From NCBI GenBank assembly GCA_038212405.1, contig JBBQUN010000001.1, positions 830-64,829 of the forward strand: DNA of 64,000 nt, in the 5' to 3' direction. Below the pieces are notes generated by a model. The model saw only the letters and a list, made by a program, of their open reading frames with translations, ran no database searches and was not told where the DNA came from. Positions 8 through 56,780 of this stretch are shown here, one piece after another. The first letter of the stretch is position 1; each line of letters begins with the position of its first letter. The translations under genes were made by a program, and so were the position numbers. Source of the DNA: Acidimicrobiales bacterium (GTDB taxonomy: Bacteria; Actinomycetota; Acidimicrobiia; Acidimicrobiales; SZUA-35).

Positions 8-199
8 ATGGACTATCAGCTCTGGTTCGTCGTGCCCGACGGGGTCGCCCCTGCCGGACTCTTCTCACCGGAAGACGGTGTGGTCGAGGCACTTCTCGAT
101 CTCGACGATGTCGAGGGTCTGGGTTGGGGCATCAGTATCGAACCCGATGCAGGCTCTGACCAGCCAACGAGCGAGGTGTTGTTCCTCGGTCTTGCGTGA
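8..199 (+). CDS. hypothetical acidic protein, possibly the 3' end of a CDS entering from upstream of the window
   Basis: ORF track 8..199. The frame stays open back to position 2. Third codon positions are G/C-biased. No motif recognised. Confidence 0.25.
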   Translation: MDYQLWFVVPDGVAPAGLFSPEDGVVEALLDLDDVEGLGWGISIEPDAGSDQPTSEVLFLGLA

Positions 200-323
200 C
201 GGTCAGCACGACGTCCGGCGCAAGGGTGCTGCCGGTTCCTTGGCCGAATCTCGACGTATGGTCCTTCAGCCACGCTGCCTTTCGACCGATACACCGACAC
301 ACGCCGACCCGGAGCCGAGTGCC

Positions 324-2141
324 ATGAAGAACCAACGTCGAGCCTGGCACCGCCGGGGAGCAATCGCGACGAGCCTCGCTGCCCTGGCCTCGGTGTCGTT
401 GCCGGTGACGGCGGTACCTTCAGCAGCCGCCCCTCAAACGTCGGCCAAGAGTGCGCTCTCGCTGGACAGCACCGTGTTGCCACCCATGACCTTTGATCCG
501 TCGCTCCCGTTCGAGATCGTTCCGGGCCGCGACACCGTCCAACCTCACGTCGACACCATCGACGGTGTCGAGCTCTCTCCCACCGAGGTCGACGCCGTCT
601 TCGCACGGGCTGAGCTCGCAGGCGAGCCCGGTCGGGCGTTGGCGACGAGCACGCAGGTCTATGACTGGCGCGGCACCACCAGCGACCCCGATGTTCGGAT
701 CGTGGCCGATGCGAACGTACCGATCGAAGTCGTGCAACTCCTCGGCGAAGTCTTCGAGGAGTGGCGTGAGGTCATCGATCTCGACATCGCTGCTCCCGAG
801 TGGCACCACATTCGCCTGGCGTGGCGAGACGACCTTCCGACCGGCGTGCTCGGTGGTGCCTCGACCGGCTGGGTCACGGTCAATCAGAACGGCTCCACGT
901 TCGTCGTGCCTCGGTTCCTGGCCAATGTGAATGGTGCCTCGACCGCCTCTGGTGCCTACGCCCTCGATCTCGTGCTGAACTCGCAGATCAACTGGGACTT
1001 TGCTATCGACCCCAACGACTCCCAGCCGAACAACGCCTACTACCTCAAGACCGTGATGCTGCACGAGGTCGGTCATGCCCTTGGGGTCGCCTCTGGTGTC
1101 GACCGCGAGCAGTCGATCAATTCCTCGGTGCTCAGCACCTGGGGCGCCACGTTCTTCGCCAACAAAAATCCCACCCAACCCTTTGCCAGCTTGCGATCGG
1201 GTGTCGTCAAGGCGAACGACCTGTGGTCGGTCAATGCCGACGGCACCTGGGAGAAGATCTTCGATCCGTTCTCGTGGAGTCAGGGTTCGAGCCTCAGCCA
1301 CCTCGACGAGAACACCTATACCTACCAGCGGGGCCAGATTCGAACACCCGGCGCGCTGATGACTCCCTTCCTCACCAATGGCGAGGTCAATCACGTCGAC
1401 GGGGTCATTGCCGGGCTGCTCAGCCAAGCCGGGTACGAAACCTTCCTCTTCCCCTCGGCGCCAGTGGTGTCGGCCGCGTCAAACAACGGCGTGCTGAGTG
1501 TCAACGTCGCACCGGGGCCTGATACGGCGATGAACGTTCCGGCCAAGCAGTGGATGGTGACGATCAAAGACCCGGTGGGAACGGTCGTCCGGCAGGCGAC
1601 CATTGCGGCCTCTGCCCGGAGTGTCGACTTCGGCGGGTTCGCAACGAGCGGCACCTACACCGCCTCGGTCGCGGCCGAGATCGATGGCCAGACCGCGCTG
1701 GCGGCGCCAGTCGGCGTCGCATTCACCGCAGTCCCTCGCACCACGATCGGCGAAGCCAGCACTCTCTTCGGCGTGATCTATGCCACCGACTACCGAGCTG
1801 ACGATGCCGACACCCTTCGGCTGTATCGAGCGTTCTTCGAACGAGATCCCGATCCCGTTGGCATCAAGTACTGGATCGGCCAGTCGCGCGGTGGGGCAAC
1901 CTATGACGACCTCGCCTACGCATTCGCCTTCAGCGACGAGTTCACCTTGCGCTATCGCAACCTGACCGACCGGCAGTTCCTCGAGTTGGTCTACCGGAAC
2001 GTGCTGGGCCGTGCCCCGGATCAGGGCGGCTTCGATTACTGGAACAACCAGATCGTCAGCGGCCTACCACGGCACCTCACGGTGCGCTGGATCGCCCAGA
2101 GCAGCGAGTTCAGCAACCGTCACCCGTACCTGCCGCAGTAG
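324..2141 (+). CDS. secreted zinc-metalloprotease-like protein with C-terminal DUF4214-type domain
   Basis: In-frame ATG at 324 begins a signal-peptide-like sequence (MKNQRRAWHRRGAIATSLAALASVSLPVTAVPSAAAP). HEVGHALG is an HExxH motif. C-terminal FLELVYRNVLGRAPDQGGFDYWNNQI resembles the DUF4214 repeat. Positions 78-323 of the tracked ORF look like non-coding read-in. Confidence 0.8.
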   Translation: MKNQRRAWHRRGAIATSLAALASVSLPVTAVPSAAAPQTSAKSALSLDSTVLPPMTFDPSLPFEIVPGRDTVQPHVDTIDGVELSPTEVDAVFARAELAGEPGRALATSTQVYDWRGTTSDPDVRIVADANVPIEVVQLLGEVFEEWREVIDLDIAAPEWHHIRLAWRDDLPTGVLGGASTGWVTVNQNGSTFVVPRFLANVNGASTASGAYALDLVLNSQINWDFAIDPNDSQPNNAYYLKTVMLHEVGHALGVASGVDREQSINSSVLSTWGATFFANKNPTQPFASLRSGVVKANDLWSVNADGTWEKIFDPFSWSQGSSLSHLDENTYTYQRGQIRTPGALMTPFLTNGEVNHVDGVIAGLLSQAGYETFLFPSAPVVSAASNNGVLSVNVAPGPDTAMNVPAKQWMVTIKDPVGTVVRQATIAASARSVDFGGFATSGTYTASVAAEIDGQTALAAPVGVAFTAVPRTTIGEASTLFGVIYATDYRADDADTLRLYRAFFERDPDPVGIKYWIGQSRGGATYDDLAYAFAFSDEFTLRYRNLTDRQFLELVYRNVLGRAPDQGGFDYWNNQIVSGLPRHLTVRWIAQSSEFSNRHPYLPQ

Positions 2142-2160: not shown

Positions 2161-3675
2161 CTACAGCAGCTGCCCGTATTCCGATTCGAGCTGATCGAAG
2201 TCGAGGTTGCGAAGGAACCGGCTGAAGGCGATCTGTGCCGTCAGCGCATCGAGATTGCGGAACGGTTCGGGTACGAACGCTGGTGGTGCGAGCAGTCCCT
2301 CGTCGAACAGGTGGTTGACCAGGCCCATGGCCTGGAGGTCGACCTTGCCGCAGAACAGCATGGGGATTCGATCCGGTCGACCCTGGCGCAGTGCCAGCCG
2401 CACGTAGACGTAGGACAACACCAGCCCTTTGCCGTAGGCCAGATCTTTGGTGAATGGGGGACCGGTCGGTGTGCTGCCACGGAAGATGCGGGCAGCAATG
2501 CTCCAGCACTCGTCTTCGGTCAACCCCTCGGTGCGGAAGTGTTCGAAGAGCTCGACGAATGATGCCCCTTCCAGCACGAGTGACACCCCGCGCACACGGT
2601 TCGCGATGCGGCGCAAGCGACCAGGGTGGCTCCGGAGCGCGAACATCTCGGTGAGTGTCGCCAGTCCCTCCTGGGTGACCGTCGCCGGGGGAGCGGCCTT
2701 GCCAAGGAAGTTGCACCATGGTTGGGCGAGCCCGTTGCGGGTGGTGCCGACATGCACCCAACCCTCGTGAGCCTCGAGCGTTGCCAGGTCTTGCGGGCTG
2801 AACCTGGCGTCGGCGCGGAGCTTGATGTAGGTCGAGCCGGCGGCGGCGTCGGCAACCAGGCCGTCATCAAGGCGAACATCGACCGCCCCCGGGCCCATGG
2901 AAGCGTCGAGCCGGGCTTGCAGGTCATCGACGGCGGCCTGACCATCGAGATCATGAGCCGACCTGTCGATCAGCAGTGACGGTTCCAGCGCCGCGAGCGA
3001 GTCATCCAACGAGTCGGCCAGGTCTCGCACGGTGGGGCCGCCGGCGTGGAAGACCTCTTCGGGTGTGCCGTAGAGCAAGGTGGCGTAGCTACCGAAGGCA
3101 GGTTTTCCTCGGGCCTGGAGAAGATCGATCGTGAGCCGGTACTGCTCACAGGTTCGTCGTAGCAGTTGCGAGGCAGCGGTTGCGGACCCGAGTTGGGTTG
3201 CGATCTCGGTCTCGAGTTCGATGAAGCGGAGCCGCACGTCATCGGCATCGAACTTGAGAGGATTGCGCTCGTAGTAGTCGGTGTCGACGGCGGGCTGTTC
3301 CCTGAAGTTCGAAGCGAAGAAGCCATCACGGATGTTGTCGGTCCACTTCACCGCATCGAGTACTCGGATCTCGGCCTGGGCCTCGATGAGTCGATCCGAC
3401 AACTGGCGGATGGTGGCCCGATGGTCACCCTGTTCGGCGGTGACGGTCTCGACAGTGTCGGTCATCTCCATAGTGAACAGCCTCGACATGACGAGAACAC
3501 CCGTCACTTTGCGCCAGTGTCGGCGATTCTTGCCCTCATCGCCGCCGCTCCAGCTCGTGAGCTCGATCTCGGCAGTGGTTGGTGGAGCGGTTCCCGTGAT
3601 CTTCTCGGTGTGGGTCTTTTGCTCGCCATCTGACATCGGGAGCTGCATCGTTGCCCAGAACCTGTCCTCGTACAC
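2161..3675 (-). CDS. DUF1704 / QEGLA-motif protein (tyrosine/phenylalanine carboxypeptidase-like)
   Basis: VTQEGLATLTE QEGLA motif and LEAHEGWVHVG metal-site-like motif. Start is uncertain: 3675, or internal ATGs at 3489/3471/3465. Confidence 0.75.
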   Translation of the reverse strand: MYEDRFWATMQLPMSDGEQKTHTEKITGTAPPTTAEIELTSWSGGDEGKNRRHWRKVTGVLVMSRLFTMEMTDTVETVTAEQGDHRATIRQLSDRLIEAQAEIRVLDAVKWTDNIRDGFFASNFREQPAVDTDYYERNPLKFDADDVRLRFIELETEIATQLGSATAASQLLRRTCEQYRLTIDLLQARGKPAFGSYATLLYGTPEEVFHAGGPTVRDLADSLDDSLAALEPSLLIDRSAHDLDGQAAVDDLQARLDASMGPGAVDVRLDDGLVADAAAGSTYIKLRADARFSPQDLATLEAHEGWVHVGTTRNGLAQPWCNFLGKAAPPATVTQEGLATLTEMFALRSHPGRLRRIANRVRGVSLVLEGASFVELFEHFRTEGLTEDECWSIAARIFRGSTPTGPPFTKDLAYGKGLVLSYVYVRLALRQGRPDRIPMLFCGKVDLQAMGLVNHLFDEGLLAPPAFVPEPFRNLDALTAQIAFSRFLRNLDFDQLESEYGQLL

Positions 3676-53660: not shown

Positions 53661-55313
53661 TCAGCGAAGCGTGACCGACCCGGCCGGTGCCAGGGTCACC
53701 CAGGTCTCGCCTGGCGTCAGGAGGATCTCGGCTCCGGAGGTATCGGAGAGGATGATACGGTCGCCGGCTGCTGCTCGACTCCAGGTGCCGGTCACCACGA
53801 CCCCACTGGTGAAGACATCGACCCGACCCTGACCAACGGTGATGGCTTCGGGTGATTCGGAATCGGCGATGCTCACGGCGTACTCGGTGGTCATCACCAC
53901 GACGTTCTCCGGCGCGATCTGTGCGCCTCCTGGTTCGGTGTGGAGCGCCCCGTCGTGACGTCGGATCCAGCCTCCTCGGTTGCCATCCCAGCGATAGGTG
54001 ACGGTGGTCCTACCGAACGCGACGTCGACTCCTGACGACGCGCGAGCGGCGTTGGCGGGCGCAAGGTTCGATGCTCGATAGCGGAACAACGGTGCCGGGG
54101 TCGACGTCGGGTTCGAGGCGATGGCGTAGAGCCTGCTGGTCGTCGCGAACAGGTTGTGCGGAGCTCGGCGAGCGGATTCCCGGTAGTAGGCGTTGCCGCC
54201 AACGAGGGCGTTGACGTTCTGCACCGGCGCCGACTCGAGCAATCTCAGAATCGTGGCGTTGGCACCGGATGCGGCGAGCATCGGCGTGTTGAACTGAGCC
54301 AGCACGTCGAAGTCGGTCGTGCGAATCGAACGGACGGGGCCAACAACCGCAGGCACATCGGACTGGAAGATCGCGATCAGTCGCGTGAGATCACCTTCGA
54401 CCTTCTCCTCGAACACGATGTCGGCTTGGTTCAGGCCCACCTGCGGTCGGGCAAGTGGCACGTTGTCGATCTTGACGGCAAGGGCGGTTCGGTTGGCGGC
54501 GTCTCGTGTCGCTTCACCGGTGAGCGGGTTGCGCTCGACCAGGATCGAGGCGAGCCGGTTTTCGTATTCACCGGATGCGAGGAAACCGGCGATCACGTCG
54601 GAGTAACGCGTGCCACTGTTGATCAGCCCGGCCCAATAGGCGAGCCCGGCCGGCTCGGGTGTGCGGTCGAGCATGCCGATGTAGAGCATGGTGGCTCGCA
54701 CGTCGCCGTAGGTGGCGGTTCGATTTTCGGCCGATTCGGAGAAGTTCGTCATGACCTGACCGCGGTCGAGGCCACGAGCCATCTGTTGCAGCCAGTACCC
54801 GCGGCCACCCTCGTCGGATGCCCGGCTGAGAACGTTTCGGTACACCAGGTCGATGAATTCTGCGTCGTTCAACGCTCCATAGGTGTTGCTGAACTCGGTC
54901 GATCCGGCAAAATTCTGCGAGATCGAGGCGATGTCTTGGCCGGCGCGAATGCGCCCGGTCCAGAATTCGAGGCCGCCGATGTCAGGCGAGCGGAGGAAGT
55001 AGGCGACGTAGAGCCGGACGAGGGGAGCGATCACGGCCTCGAACTCGGGTTGCTCGGCCATCGACTGGATGAGCGTTGCCGGGTGCACGCCGCTGTCGAG
55101 CTGGTGATTCCAAAAGGCCAGGCCGCCCGCGTCGGGGGAGCGGCCGAGGAAGTCGAGGTATTGCTGGGTGATCAGGTCGCGCCCAGCTGGTGGTGCCGGC
55201 GCTTGCGCCGCCCCCACCGGTGTTGCGCCGATCGACACGGCACCCGCCAACAGGCTCACCGAGAGAGAAACCAAGAGCACGACAGACCGTGTGGCAGTTC
55301 GTTGGGCGCCCAT
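53661..55313 (-). CDS. secreted protein with several DUF4214-type repeats (I count about four) plus C-terminal DUF3048 domain
   Basis: Signal VVLLVSLSVSLLAGAVSIGATPVGA. Repeated QYLDFLGRSPDAGGLAFW / LVYRNVLSRASDEGGRGYW units. AVKIDNVPLARPQVGLNQADIVFEEKVEGDLTRLIAIF is the DUF3048 pattern. Confidence 0.8.
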   Translation of the reverse strand: MGAQRTATRSVVLLVSLSVSLLAGAVSIGATPVGAAQAPAPPAGRDLITQQYLDFLGRSPDAGGLAFWNHQLDSGVHPATLIQSMAEQPEFEAVIAPLVRLYVAYFLRSPDIGGLEFWTGRIRAGQDIASISQNFAGSTEFSNTYGALNDAEFIDLVYRNVLSRASDEGGRGYWLQQMARGLDRGQVMTNFSESAENRTATYGDVRATMLYIGMLDRTPEPAGLAYWAGLINSGTRYSDVIAGFLASGEYENRLASILVERNPLTGEATRDAANRTALAVKIDNVPLARPQVGLNQADIVFEEKVEGDLTRLIAIFQSDVPAVVGPVRSIRTTDFDVLAQFNTPMLAASGANATILRLLESAPVQNVNALVGGNAYYRESARRAPHNLFATTSRLYAIASNPTSTPAPLFRYRASNLAPANAARASSGVDVAFGRTTVTYRWDGNRGGWIRRHDGALHTEPGGAQIAPENVVVMTTEYAVSIADSESPEAITVGQGRVDVFTSGVVVTGTWSRAAAGDRIILSDTSGAEILLTPGETWVTLAPAGSVTLR

Positions 55314-55406: not shown

Positions 55407-55456
55407 GGTTGATGAACACGAACGTGCGAAAACAGTCGTTTCTGTTCATCGACCTC
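55407..55456 (+). repeat. conserved hairpin element, copy A
   Basis: GGTT GATGAACACGAACG TGCGAAAACAGT CGTTTCTGTTCATC GACCTC. 14-bp stem and 12-nt loop. Confidence 0.9.
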
Positions 55457-55577
55457 CGTTGAACGAGGAGGAGCAGCCGGCGGCCCGTCCTCGCAAAAGC
55501 TGTGTCCCGAAGCAGCTGCTTGCGTTCACCAGTGGTGACGGGAGGGCGGTGTCAGTGGCGGTCGCTACGGTCTCGGC

Positions 55578-56642
55578 ATGCGATATGACGAGGCGTGGAA
55601 CGCTGTCGTCGGGCTCGCGGCTTCTCGACACGGCGCATTCCACGCAGTTGAAGCCGCCGAATGTGGGGTCAACCAGGTGCGGCTCCGCCGTGGCGTGGAA
55701 ACTGGTGAGCTGGTGCGTCCGCACCAGCGCGTCTTCGTGCTGGCATCGGCGCCGCGCAGTCAACTCCAAGCGCTCCATGTTGCGACACTGTCGACGAGGT
55801 TGTCCGGAAAGGCCAGCTCAGCGTCTGGCGGGTCAGCGTCTGGCGGGTCAGCGTCTGGCGGGTCGTCATTGGGCAGCTCGGCATCTGGCGTCCTCGCAGC
55901 GGGCGGGTCGGTAACGACCGGCGTGGTGTCGGGCGGTGTCATCAGTCATGCCAGTGCTGCGGCGGTGCACGGCTTGGTCGACGCCCATCCACAACAGATC
56001 TCGTTGTGGGTTCCTTCGAATGCCAGGCGGCGCGGCTCGGGCTACGCGCTGCATCGAAACGGACCGATCGAACCGGCGCGTGACCTGACCACCGTTGATG
56101 GTCTGCCCGTGGTGAACCGGGCGGCGAGCCTGTGCCAATTGGGGAGCACCAACCCGGCACTCGTCGATCGGGCGCTCGATACGTTTTCGCGGACATCGTC
56201 GATGGCCTGGCTCCATCAGACAGCAGACCGGTGGCGGTTGTACGACCCACGAACGGTGGCGGCTCTCGACCGGGTTCTTGCCGACCCGCGTCGCTATCAG
56301 GGAGTCACCGACTCCTGGTTCGAACGGGTTGTTGCCGGTCTCCTGCTTCGCCGGAATCTTCCACCAATCGAAACTCAATACGAGGTCGTGATCAACGGCC
56401 GGGTCTATCGGATCGATATCGCGATACCCGAGGTCCTGGTCGGCGTCGAGGCCCACTCTCGAGAGTTCCATTGGGGCCCTGACTCCGAAGCGGCCGACAA
56501 CAACCGTGACCTCGAGTTCACCTCCATTGGATGGCAGCTCCTCTACATGACGTGGTGGCAGTCGAAGCATCCCGACCAATTCGTCGACCACATCGTGGCA
56601 ACGGTCCAGACCCGGCTGCGGCAAGGAATCACCGCCAGCTGA
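55578..56642 (+). CDS. AbiEi_4-like N-terminal HTH domain fused to DUF559 (Vsr/PD-(D/E)XK-like endonuclease fold) protein
   Basis: The N-terminus (LAASRHGAFHAVEAAECGVNQVRLRRGVETGELVRPHQRVFVL) resembles the AbiEi antitoxin-like domain. The C-terminus (YRIDIAIPEVLVGVEAHSREFHWG...DNNRDLEFTSIGWQLLYMTW) resembles DUF559. Confidence 0.7.
   Translation: MRYDEAWNAVVGLAASRHGAFHAVEAAECGVNQVRLRRGVETGELVRPHQRVFVLASAPRSQLQALHVATLSTRLSGKASSASGGSASGGSASGGSSLGSSASGVLAAGGSVTTGVVSGGVISHASAAAVHGLVDAHPQQISLWVPSNARRRGSGYALHRNGPIEPARDLTTVDGLPVVNRAASLCQLGSTNPALVDRALDTFSRTSSMAWLHQTADRWRLYDPRTVAALDRVLADPRRYQGVTDSWFERVVAGLLLRRNLPPIETQYEVVINGRVYRIDIAIPEVLVGVEAHSREFHWGPDSEAADNNRDLEFTSIGWQLLYMTWWQSKHPDQFVDHIVATVQTRLRQGITAS
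55817..55861. repeat. in-frame 15-bp x3 tandem repeat (SASGG) inside the DUF559 gene
   Basis: CTCAGCGTCTGGCGG / GTCAGCGTCTGGCGG / GTCAGCGTCTGGCGG. Confidence 0.9.
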
Positions 56643-56690
56643 GGAATGGACGCCTCGGAACGCCCGCCTCGGGGCGGTGGCCGAGGCTGA

Positions 56691-56740
56691 GGTCGATGAA
56701 CGCAAACGTGCGAAAACAGTCGTTTCCGTTCATTGATCTC
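56691..56740 (+). repeat. conserved hairpin element, copy B
   Basis: GGTC GATGAACGCAAACG TGCGAAAACAGT CGTTTCCGTTCATT GATCTC. Same orientation as copy A. 22-nt core identical. Confidence 0.9.
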
Positions 56741-56780
56741 GCTCGATCGGACGACGCGGACGTGGTCGCCAGGGAGAGGA

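What the first reader, a model, noticed from the sequence alone, without database searches (positions are those of the whole stretch)
55407..56740. Conserved 50-nt hairpin with compensatory stem substitutions, present twice in direct orientation and bracketing an AbiEi-like/DUF559 gene
Copy A (55407-56) and copy B (56691-740) are 1.28 kb apart and flank the 55578-56642 CDS. Each folds into a 14-bp stem with a 12-nt loop. Copy A is GATGAACACGAACG-TGCGAAAACAGT-CGTTTCTGTTCATC and copy B is GATGAACGCAAACG-TGCGAAAACAGT-CGTTTCCGTTCATT. A 22-nt core (AACGTGCGAAAACAGTCGTTTC) is identical between the copies. All four differences keep the stem paired: one A-T to G-C double (compensatory) change, and two changes between Watson-Crick and G-T wobble pairs. 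The single C/C mismatch is shared. Selection therefore acts on the structure and on the loop sequence, not just on shared ancestry. Copy A lies between divergent genes, so it is not simply a terminator. Copy B lies between convergent genes. The enclosed gene combines an AbiEi-antitoxin-like HTH with a Vsr-like endonuclease fold, a family with many paralogues and unknown function. The arrangement looks like a cassette delimited by recognition hairpins. These could be targets for the encoded nuclease or HTH, a REP/MITE-like element, or an sRNA.
Basis: seen in the sequence. Interest (0 to 1): 0.6.

Follow-up and report, generated by a model that had tools for sequence, protein, structure and literature searches.

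The report
Palindrome-flanked AbiEi-like nuclease gene cassette
A gene for a DNA-binding nuclease in an Acidimicrobiia chromosome is bracketed by two copies of a ~50-bp palindrome, and the same module sits at other chromosomal sites in relatives, so the palindromes are probably the protein's own docking sites and the ends of a small, possibly mobile, selfish cassette.

Summary
Two 40-nt imperfect palindromes (55411-55450 and 56695-56734; repeat 55407-55465 / 56691-56749) share an identical 22-nt core. They are the only copies and the two strongest stems in the 64-kb window. They flank gene 55578-56642.

The pattern generalises. In five further Acidimicrobiia lineages, homologues of the gene (40-64% identity) at four chromosomal sites in all are each bracketed by a pair of homologous 42-48-bp palindromes. 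One of these loci was an untrained test of a covariance model. 13 of 19 stem pairs show double substitutions.

Copies within a locus are more alike (78-93%) than orthologous copies between genomes (63-76%). A related genome has the window's site empty, without this palindrome, and carries its cassette elsewhere. At another site two genomes carry the cassette in opposite orientations.

The protein is a complete AbiEi fold fused to a Vsr-like nuclease with its catalytic residues intact. Characterised AbiEi binds two 23-bp inverted repeats 3 bp apart, which is the same geometry.

Best reading (confidence 0.5): the palindromes are duplex recognition sites of the encoded protein and mark the ends of a mobile or formerly mobile module. 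RNA, terminator, generic REP and integron attC readings are disfavoured. The mechanism is inferred, not shown. Genome-wide copy number could not be measured.

The parts
55407..55456 (+). Upstream palindrome (copy A). The core hairpin is 55411-55450: arms of about 18 bp, a 12-nt centre TGCGAAAACAGT, and a C/C mismatch.
   Evidence: Covariance model R1 scores it 53.1 bits. It lies 121 nt upstream of the ATG, outside the predicted transcript.
55550..55577 (+). Conserved promoter-like block: TGTCAG at 55550-55555, a -10-like TACGGT at 55566-55571, then 6 nt to the ATG. A leaderless mRNA is predicted.
   Evidence: The block TGTCAC-N10-11-TAnnnT-N6-7-ATG is conserved in all eight homologue loci aligned. 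The leaderless start is an inference. The sigma-70 consensus scan found nothing here.
55578..56642 (+). Gene for a 354-aa protein: an AbiEi-like winged HTH plus AbiEi C-terminal domain (residues 1 to about 240) fused to a Vsr-like / DUF559 / MTES_1575 nuclease domain (about 245-354).
   Evidence: Pfam matches. AlphaFold model with pLDDT 82. Foldseek hits: AbiEi 6y8q at E = 4e-6, then PvuRts1I, I-Bth0305I and ngo0050 for the C-terminus. E249, D280, E291 and R310 are invariant in 16 homologues; H293 is invariant in the 7 closest.
55818..55877 (+). 15-nt tandem repeat that encodes a SASGG-type low-complexity insert found only in this copy of the gene.
   Evidence: family D9. The insert is absent from all homologues. 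pLDDT is below 50 for residues 79-116.
56691..56740 (+). Downstream palindrome (copy B). The core hairpin is 56695-56734. It is in direct orientation to copy A and starts 48 nt after the stop codon.
   Evidence: Model R1 scores it 52.9 bits.

Best explanation
The two 'hairpins' are the paired ends of a conserved three-part module: palindrome, nuclease gene, palindrome. Each palindrome is most likely a duplex DNA recognition site for the protein encoded between them. In this reading one AbiEi-like winged-HTH monomer binds each ~20-bp arm, at a conserved half-site CRnAAnCG. The mirrored half-sites lie about 20 bp apart, roughly two helical turns. This would place two Vsr-like nuclease domains over or beside the variable centre.

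The module behaves as a unit that has changed chromosomal position and orientation during Acidimicrobiia evolution. It therefore looks like a selfish, mobile or formerly mobile cassette whose ends are defined by the protein's own binding sites.

Shown: the module, its recurrence at several sites, the covariation, concerted evolution of the two copies, one empty site, the protein fold and the match in geometry. Inferred: that the protein binds these sites, that it cuts there, and how the unit moves.
For: 1. Recurrence. Homologues of 40-64% identity are each flanked by a pair of homologous palindromes in L019/L012 (same site as the window), L010/L011 and L013 (second site), L015/L016 (third site) and L021 (fourth site).
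2. Independent test. Model R1 was built without L021. Its two best hits in that 21-kb locus flank the gene (28.5 and 26 bits, E about 1e-5).
3. Specific association. Model R1 found no other copy in the 64-kb window, none in the empty-site loci L018 and L020, and one solo copy in L015.
4. Symmetry under selection. 85% of cells pair, against 65% in shuffles (0 of 500 reach the observed value) and 33-50% in slid controls. 13 of 19 pairs carry double changes. Window and L019 are orthologous copies yet differ by compensated changes: ATGAACA/TGTTCAT versus ATGGACG/CGTCCAT.
5. Concerted evolution. Identity within a locus is 78-93%; between orthologous copies it is 63-76%.
6. Geometry. There are no indels in the centre across five lineages, the half-site spacing is fixed and the centre sequence is variable. 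The total length is 42-48 bp. Characterised AbiEi binds two 23-bp inverted repeats separated by 3 bp, one monomer per repeat; Rv2827c binds 23-bp repeat pairs with a 13-bp gap (PMC7319586).
7. Protein. The whole AbiEi fold plus a Vsr-like nuclease. R35-L36-R37 in predicted helix 33-41, which I take to be the recognition helix, and the catalytic residues are invariant. I-Bth0305I, which carries the same nuclease fold, is a multidomain homodimer with a ~60-bp footprint on a pseudopalindrome (PMC3239194).
8. Mobility. Site 1 is empty in GCA_041394265.1 (L018), which carries its cassette at site 2 (L010). The cassette is inverted between L010 and L013 at the same intergenic site. L013 has a perfect 24-nt direct repeat of host sequence outside both palindromes.
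9. DNA-level rather than RNA-level role. The upstream copy lies 46-153 nt upstream of the start codon, upstream of the conserved promoter block. In the window, L019 and L015 it sits between divergent genes.
Against: - No binding or cleavage data exist; the link between protein and site is inferred from co-occurrence and geometry.
- The upstream palindrome does not overlap the promoter, unlike characterised AbiEi operators, and a downstream operator has no precedent in that family.
- One subfamily member, L014 (41-46% identity), lacks the pair and has only an unrelated palindrome over its stop codon.
- A solo diverged copy in L015 (3069-3120) sits away from any such gene, next to an IS110 fragment.
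- Only one of six lineages shows a repeat that looks like a target-site duplication.
- The cassette has host-like G+C content. Window and L019 look vertically inherited, so mobility, if real, is rare.
- Genome-wide copy number is unknown.
Confidence: 0.5

Rival explanations
1. The palindromes are ends or recombination sites used by an enzyme encoded elsewhere, and the AbiEi-like nuclease is only cargo. Candidates are an IS200/IS605-type single-strand transposase acting on subterminal hairpins, an integron-type integrase acting on attC-like folded sites, or Xer recombinases acting on dif-like sites.
For: - The two imperfect hairpins are in direct orientation, as at IS200/IS605 ends or between integron cassettes.
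- There is a mid-stem mismatch in most copies.
- L015 looks like a short array: palindrome, gene, two palindromes, selenoprotein gene, palindrome, IS110 fragment.
- The cassette occupies several sites and both orientations.
Against: - The same gene family sits between the palindromes in six lineages, down to 40% identity. That is not expected for arbitrary cargo.
- No integrase, HUH transposase or other recombinase was found among about 35 proteins of the window scanned against Pfam, or in the gene lists of the related loci.
- The arms do not match the attC R''/R' consensus (RYYYAAC / GTTRRRY; consensus from my own knowledge, read).
- There is no strand bias between G.T and A.C mismatches.
- L021 has perfect palindromes with no polarity.
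Confidence: 0.15
2. The palindromes are ordinary REP-like or terminator-like intergenic repeats of these genomes. The gene either inserts preferentially at such repeats and duplicates the target, or the repeats accumulate beside it by chance.
For: - Acidimicrobiia genomes do carry dispersed intergenic palindromes. A second, unrelated family occurs three times in 43 kb of GCA_041394265.1, including in the empty site 1.
- The two flanking copies are direct repeats, as a target duplication would be.
- L013 has a 24-nt duplication of host sequence.
- Distant homologues are flanked by direct repeats of local sequence (L017, 404 nt).
- One solo copy exists.
Against: - Palindromes at four different sites are homologous to each other. 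They share the half-site motif, the spacing and the size, and they track the gene rather than the host genome's own repeat family.
- No copy occurs in the rest of the window or in 36 kb of loci that lack the gene.
- The empty site holds a different family.
- Orthologous occupancy in window and L019 combined with higher similarity within a locus is not what one old target duplication predicts.
- The GTAG/CGTC head of REPs is not consistently present.
Confidence: 0.12
3. The hairpins act at the RNA level. They would be terminators or insulators on both sides of a toxic nuclease gene, 3'-end stabilisers, or a small RNA.
For: - The + strand RNA folds are strong (z = -4.0 and -5.5) and better than the - strand folds.
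- All non-Watson-Crick changes within the window pair are G.U on the + strand.
- The downstream copy lies 6-48 nt after the stop codon, or overlaps it, in all lineages.
- In L010 and L021 the upstream copy follows the 3' end of a co-directional gene.
Against: - No T tract follows the stems, stem G+C is lower than that of the surrounding DNA, and the terminator scan did not pick them up.
- There is no Rfam match.
- Across the family G.T equals A.C, 9 against 8.
- In the window, L019 and L015 the upstream copy lies between divergent genes and upstream of the gene's own promoter. It is probably untranscribed, yet it is conserved with compensated changes.
- The centre has a fixed length with variable sequence and variable stem extent, which fits a duplex spacing constraint better than a loop.
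Confidence: 0.1

Closest known systems
AbiEi antitoxin and its operator (S. agalactiae AbiE; M. tuberculosis Rv2827c)
   Same: The N-terminal two-thirds of the protein has the whole AbiEi fold (6y8q, E = 4e-6; Pfam AbiEi_4 and AbiEi_1). Characterised AbiEi proteins bind pairs of 23-bp inverted repeats, one monomer per repeat, with a 3-bp or 13-bp gap, giving 49-59 bp in total (PMC7319586). The palindromes here have arms of about 17-22 bp and a centre of 2-12 bp, giving 42-48 bp.
   Different: - No AbiEii (DUF1814) toxin gene is adjacent; instead a Vsr-like nuclease domain is fused in cis.
- The sites flank the gene on both sides rather than overlapping its promoter.
- Binding has not been tested.
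RAYT genes flanked by REPs
   Same: A single gene for a DNA-cleaving enzyme is bracketed by two copies of a short palindrome. The palindromes keep their pairing through complementary mutations and co-diverge with the gene (PMC2817692).
   Different: - RAYTs are HUH/Y1 transposase relatives; this protein is a wHTH plus a PD-(D/E)xK/Vsr-like nuclease.
- The REPs that flank RAYTs are inverted and belong to families of more than 100 copies per genome with a GT(A/G)G head.
- Here the copies are mostly direct, 42-48 bp long, lack that head, and only one solo copy was seen in about 246 kb.
EDxHD homing endonuclease I-Bth0305I
   Same: It has the same Vsr-like catalytic fold (3r3p, TM 0.69) in a multidomain homodimer. 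That enzyme footprints about 60 bp on a pseudopalindromic target (PMC3239194). It is a selfish nuclease gene.
   Different: - I-Bth0305I is intron-encoded in a phage recA gene, and its target is split by the insertion.
- Here the gene is free-standing in a chromosome with an intact palindrome on each side.
- The N-terminal DNA-binding module is AbiEi-like.
Integron gene cassettes and attC sites
   Same: An ORF is followed closely by an imperfect palindrome. Neighbouring palindromes are in direct orientation. The stems have an internal unpaired position. L015 shows a short array-like arrangement.
   Different: - The attC core consensus is absent.
- No integron integrase was found among the window proteins scanned or in the gene lists of the related loci.
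- The gene has its own promoter.
- The same gene family is always the 'cassette'.
IS200/IS605 elements and their hairpin-flanked derivatives
   Same: Similar imperfect hairpins sit near both ends in direct orientation, with no terminal inverted repeats in the usual sense.
   Different: - There is no TnpA/TnpB.
- There is no strand asymmetry.
- Perfect palindromes occur in L021.
- The conserved partner is an unrelated nuclease.

Membership tests
AbiEi-type DNA-binding proteins | N-terminal winged HTH plus AbiEi C-terminal domain fold | tested here: met
   Pfam AbiEi_1 reaches its cut-off; AbiEi_4 falls just below. Foldseek matches the whole AbiEi chain 6y8q, E = 4e-6, TM 0.64 normalised to the target.
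AbiEi-type DNA-binding proteins | Cognate site made of paired ~23-bp inverted repeats with a short gap | tested here: inconclusive
   The geometry matches: 42-48-bp palindromes with fixed half-site spacing (against PMC7319586). Binding itself was not tested, and the sites do not overlap the promoter.
Type IV AbiE toxin-antitoxin system | Adjacent AbiEii (DUF1814 nucleotidyltransferase) toxin gene | tested here: not met
   The window neighbours are DUF3048/DUF4214 and Aminotran_5 genes. No such family appears in the gene lists of L010, L013, L014, L019 or L021.
Vsr-like / DUF559 / MTES_1575 PD-(D/E)xK nucleases | Vsr-like nuclease fold with conserved acidic and histidine catalytic residues | tested here: met
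   Pfam MTES_1575 matches weakly, below its cut-off. Foldseek hits PvuRts1I, I-Bth0305I and ngo0050. E249, D280 and E291 are invariant in 16 sequences; H293 is invariant in the 7 closest. Activity was not tested.
REP / RAYT systems | Flanked gene encodes an HUH/Y1 (IS200/IS605-like) transposase | tested here: not met
   The protein is AbiEi-like plus Vsr-like.
REP / RAYT systems | Palindrome family present at high copy number across the genome | tested here: inconclusive
   The window has no further copy in 64 kb, and one solo copy was seen in about 246 kb sampled. No complete genome could be scanned.
Integron attC sites | R''/R' core sites (RYYYAAC ... GTTRRRY) and an integron integrase nearby | tested here: not met
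   The arms read GATGAACA ... TGTTCATC. No integrase was found among the window proteins scanned or in the gene lists of the related loci. The consensus is taken from my own knowledge.
IS200/IS605 family | TnpA (Y1) and/or TnpB gene; strand-specific hairpins | tested here: not met
   No such gene lies in or near the cassette. There is no G.T versus A.C strand bias.
Intrinsic terminators | G+C-rich stem followed by a T/U tract | tested here: not met
   The terminator scan did not report either palindrome. No T run follows them.
Known RNA families (Rfam 15) | Match at the gathering threshold | tested here: not met
   No match in the whole window.

The most novel reading that the evidence does not exclude
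The module is a new kind of DNA element that moves without a transposase or recombinase. The AbiEi-like/Vsr-like nuclease binds as a dimer to each flanking palindrome and cuts near its centre. This releases the gene with half-palindromes at its ends. Re-joining into a cut solo palindrome, in either orientation, regenerates a full palindrome on each side and leaves one at the donor site. This would explain the paired palindromes, their concerted evolution, the two orientations at one site, and the many AbiEi/DUF559 paralogues in actinobacterial genomes.
Probability: 0.15. Interest if true: 0.85.

Novelty: new variant of a known kind. Interest (0 to 1): 0.6.

Why it matters
AbiEi-like/DUF559 fusion proteins are a large uncharacterised family. 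A search of the 50%-identity representative library gave 3,956 clusters at E <= 1e-3 and 621 at E <= 1e-10. They are routinely annotated as antitoxin-domain or 'very short patch repair' proteins, and no function is known.

This work identifies, for one subfamily, a conserved pair of candidate recognition sites right next to the gene. That gives a concrete substrate for binding and cleavage assays. It also gives a testable hypothesis that these genes are selfish, site-specific nuclease cassettes rather than repair or toxin-antitoxin components.

If the protein mobilises its own gene through these palindromes, it would be a new route of gene mobility and a potential source of long-site programmable nucleases. 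If it only binds them, it extends the AbiEi operator logic to a nuclease fusion with sites on both sides of the gene.

Tried and rejected
- Exact 18-mer scan (ACGTGCGAAAACAGTCGT) of the genome and metagenome collections. It gave 1 and 8 hits, none with the arms, so all are chance matches.
- Exact look-up of the window protein: not on record. The public gene call is a 146-aa fragment (P0177).
- tblastn against plasmids: no match.
- Viral contigs: no relatives of the protein and no palindrome matches.
- Rfam: nothing. NCBIfam: nothing for the protein.
- Strand-specific folding argued from G.T wobbles: rejected at family level, 9 G.T against 8 A.C.
- General target-site duplication: only L013 has an outer direct repeat, of 24 nt; the other five lineages have none of 9 nt or longer.
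- Extended direct repeats beyond the palindrome: small and inconsistent.
- Compositional island: none; cassette G+C is 0.60-0.67, like its flanks.
- Mapping the insertion boundaries against the empty site: the intergenic DNA is too diverged to align apart from the neighbouring gene's -10 box.
- Literature searches on DUF559, AbiEi plus very short patch, and Acidimicrobiia plus palindromes: no prior description found in the held library.
- L014's 22-nt flanking repeats are probably GntR-type operators of the neighbouring regulator, not part of the system.
Full report
**Observation**

Copy A is at 55411-55450 and copy B at 56695-56734. Each has a 14-position stem (13 pairs and a shared C/C mismatch) and a 12-nt centre, and they share an identical 22-nt core. 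The core occurs only twice in the window even with three mismatches allowed, with none expected by chance. The repeat extends to 59 nt at 83% identity.

With the flanks included, the stems reach 18 and 20 pairs. These are the two longest stems in a census of the whole 64-kb window, which has no other REP-like family. The four differences between the copies keep pairing intact, exactly as stated. RNA folds are strong on the + strand (z = -4.0 and -5.5) and weaker on the - strand. DNA-parameter folds are moderate. Rfam has no match.

**The gene**

ORF 55578-56642 matches AbiEi_4, AbiEi_1 and MTES_1575 REase in Pfam. An AlphaFold model built on 16 homologues has pLDDT 82. The exception is residues 79-116, a SASGG-type low-complexity insert encoded by a 15-nt tandem repeat. 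That insert is unique to this copy.

By Foldseek, the first ~240 residues match the entire AbiEi antitoxin of S. agalactiae (6y8q, E = 4e-6). The C-terminus matches Vsr-like nucleases: PvuRts1I, the catalytic domain of homing endonuclease I-Bth0305I, and the DUF559 protein ngo0050. E249, D280, E291 and R310 are invariant in 16 homologues. H293 and R35-L36-R37 in predicted helix 33-41 are invariant in the closest seven. No AbiEii toxin gene is adjacent.

All homologue loci share the block TGTCAC-N10-11-TAnnnT-N6-7-ATG. I infer that the mRNA is leaderless and that the upstream palindrome lies outside the transcript.

**Relatives**

The window is from an Acidimicrobiia-type organism with 64% G+C. 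Its contig is in NCBI, because the neighbouring DUF3048 protein has a 100% match on a 65.7-kb contig.

Homologues of the nuclease were traced to contigs. In five further lineages the gene is bracketed by a pair of palindromes:

| Locus | Protein identity (BLASTP) | Site |
|---|---|---|
| L019 and its near-duplicate L012 | 64% | same site and orientation as the window |
| L010/L011 | 56% | between DUF8575 and luciferase-like genes |
| L013 | 54% | same intergenic site as L010, opposite orientation |
| L015/L016 | 40% | third site; three flanking copies |
| L021 | 43% | fourth site |

L021 was fetched last, as an independent test. A covariance model built from the other eleven palindromes placed its two best hits in 21 kb on either side of the gene (28.5 and 26 bits). 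There they are 48-of-49 identical perfect palindromes.

One subfamily member, L014, lacks the pair. More distant homologues do not have it either: L017 carries a 404-nt direct repeat of local sequence instead.

**The palindrome family**

Eleven copies align without any indel in the centre, and all pairs are symmetric about one axis.
- 85% of cells pair, against 65% in column shuffles (0 of 500 reach the observed value) and 33-50% when the partner is slid.
- 13 of 19 pairs show double substitutions.
- Conserved positions form a mirrored half-site, CRnAAnCG, with about 20 bp between the two copies.
- The centre is constant in length but variable in sequence. GAAAAC is shared only between the window and L019.
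- Total length is 42-48 bp.
- Most copies carry one mid-stem mismatch, but its position wanders between columns 17 and 21, and L021 has none.
- Across the family G.T cells (9) do not outnumber A.C cells (8). So the wobble pattern seen in the window is not evidence for folding of one particular strand.

The two copies in a locus are more alike (78-93%) than orthologous copies in different genomes: 67-74% for window against L019, and 63-76% for L010 against L013. The pair therefore evolves in concert.

**Association and mobility**

Across about 246 kb searched with the model, 14 distinct sites score E < 1e-3. Thirteen lie within about 155 nt of the ends of a subfamily gene. One is solo: L015 3069-3120, diverged, about 70 nt from an IS110-family transposase fragment. 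The rest of the window has none. The two loci that lack the gene have none.

The window, L018 and L019 are roughly equidistant at 79-80% nucleotide identity. L019 has the cassette at the window's site. L018 and L020 have 138 nt there instead. That stretch contains a single palindrome of an unrelated family that is dispersed in that genome (L010 5824-5884 and 12962-13012; L018 9887-9943). The same genome, GCA_041394265.1, carries its cassette at the second site (L010).

At the second site, L010 and L013 have the cassette in opposite orientations relative to conserved flanks. L013 additionally has a perfect 24-nt direct repeat of the neighbouring gene's 3' end outside both palindromes. No such repeat exists in the other lineages.

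Between the 99%-identical L010 and L011, a 1-kb replacement ends at the outer edge of the upstream palindrome. This could be a MAG assembly artefact.

The cassette has host-like composition. No integrase or transposase was found among about 35 proteins of the window scanned against Pfam.

**Interpretation**

The module of palindrome, gene and palindrome is real and conserved, and it has occupied at least four sites. The most economical reading is that the palindromes are duplex recognition sites of the encoded protein.
- Characterised AbiEi proteins bind pairs of 23-bp inverted repeats with 3- or 13-bp gaps, one monomer per repeat (PMC7319586). This is the size and symmetry seen here.
- The Vsr-like homing endonuclease I-Bth0305I is a multidomain homodimer that footprints about 60 bp on a pseudopalindrome (PMC3239194).
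- Fixed half-site spacing, a variable centre of constant length, no strand bias, and an upstream copy outside the transcript all favour a DNA-level, symmetric-dimer site over an RNA or single-strand hairpin.

That the protein cuts there, and that this moves the cassette, is inference. The evidence for movement is indirect: site changes, one empty site, two orientations and one 24-nt duplication. Movement must be rare, because window and L019 look vertically related.

**Rivals**

- Ends for a recombinase or transposase encoded elsewhere (confidence 0.15). This is weakened by the constant gene partner, the absence of such enzymes nearby and the lack of attC consensus.
- Generic REP-like repeats or target duplication (0.12). 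This is weakened by homology of the palindromes across sites, their absence elsewhere and the different family in the empty site. It cannot be excluded without whole-genome scans.
- RNA-level terminator, insulator or sRNA (0.10). This is weakened by the lack of a T tract, the position between divergent genes and the lack of strand bias.

**Comparison with known systems**

The closest functional analogue for binding is AbiEi with its operator, but there is no toxin partner and the sites flank the gene. The closest architectural analogue is a RAYT gene flanked by REPs, which also keep pairing by complementary mutations and co-diverge with the gene (PMC2817692). There, however, the enzyme is different, the orientation is inverted and the copy number is high. 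I did not find this arrangement described in the held literature.

I rate it a new variant of a known kind, with moderately high interest. It gives a large uncharacterised protein family (3,956 clusters at E <= 1e-3) a concrete candidate substrate and a testable selfish-element hypothesis.

**Limits**

Genome-wide copy number and the frequency of solo copies therefore remain unknown. Six lineages are too few to test co-variation between protein and DNA. No experiment was possible.

Noticed in passing
window 55818-55877: A 15-nt tandem repeat (TCAGCGTCTGGCGGG, 3-4 units) encodes a SASGG-type low-complexity insert. It is absent from all homologues and disordered in the model. The public gene call for this contig is only a 146-aa C-terminal fragment (P0177), so the full ORF is probably unannotated.
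   Followed up: partly
window 55550-55577 and the equivalent positions in L010, L012, L013, L014, L015, L019, L021: The block TGTCAC-N10-11-TAnnnT-N6-7-ATG is conserved upstream of every subfamily gene, which suggests a leaderless transcript. The TGTCAC element sits too close to the -10 box to be a normal -35 and is unexplained.
   Followed up: partly
L010 5824-5884 and 12962-13012; L018 9887-9943; L020 about 2790-2850: A second, unrelated 51-57-bp palindrome family (GCAACTTTGGnGAGTTG-N17-CAACTCnCCAAAGTTGC) is dispersed in GCA_041394265.1 and GCA_041394205.1, always just 3' of a gene. One copy occupies the empty version of the window's insertion site.
   Followed up: partly
L013 9664-9687 and 10972-10995; L013 9762-9825: A perfect 24-nt direct repeat, a copy of the 3' end of the DUF8575 gene including its stop codon, lies outside both palindromes like a long target-site duplication. 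A 4 x 16-nt tandem repeat sits between the upstream palindrome and the promoter.
   Followed up: partly
L010 8807-9894 versus L011 8961-9895: Two 99%-identical MAG contigs differ by a ~1-kb replacement: the C-terminal part of the DUF8575 gene against an unrelated MscS-like gene. The right junction is at the outer edge of the upstream palindrome. This is either recombination at the palindrome or an assembly chimera.
   Followed up: partly
L015 1913-3028 and 3069-3657: A ResA-like WAxxUGC selenoprotein gene was called as two ORFs split at its in-frame TGA. Beyond it lie a solo diverged palindrome (3069-3120) and, about 70 nt further, an IS110-family RNA-guided transposase fragment. With the three palindromes around the nuclease gene, this looks like a short array.
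   Followed up: partly
L017 9339-9737 and 11343-11744: A distant homologue (P0015, about 27-32% identity) is flanked by a 404-nt direct repeat at 89% identity. The repeat includes the 5' end of the neighbouring AAA_14 ATPase gene.
   Followed up: no
L014 10940-10989; 9906-9927 and 11050-11071: Subfamily member P0006 lacks the palindrome pair. An unrelated 46-bp palindrome overlaps its stop codon. Two AT-rich 22-nt repeats (TGATATATCAsTTACrTATCAG) flank the gene and are probably operators of the adjacent GntR regulator.
   Followed up: no
window 53661-55313 (-) and 78-2141 (+): Two proteins with DUF4214 repeats lie in one window, one of them also with DUF3048 domains. The DUF3048 gene is preceded by TATGGT 7 nt before its ATG, so it too looks leaderless. 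The GACCATAG box is the only intergenic sequence conserved with L018 and L019.
   Followed up: no
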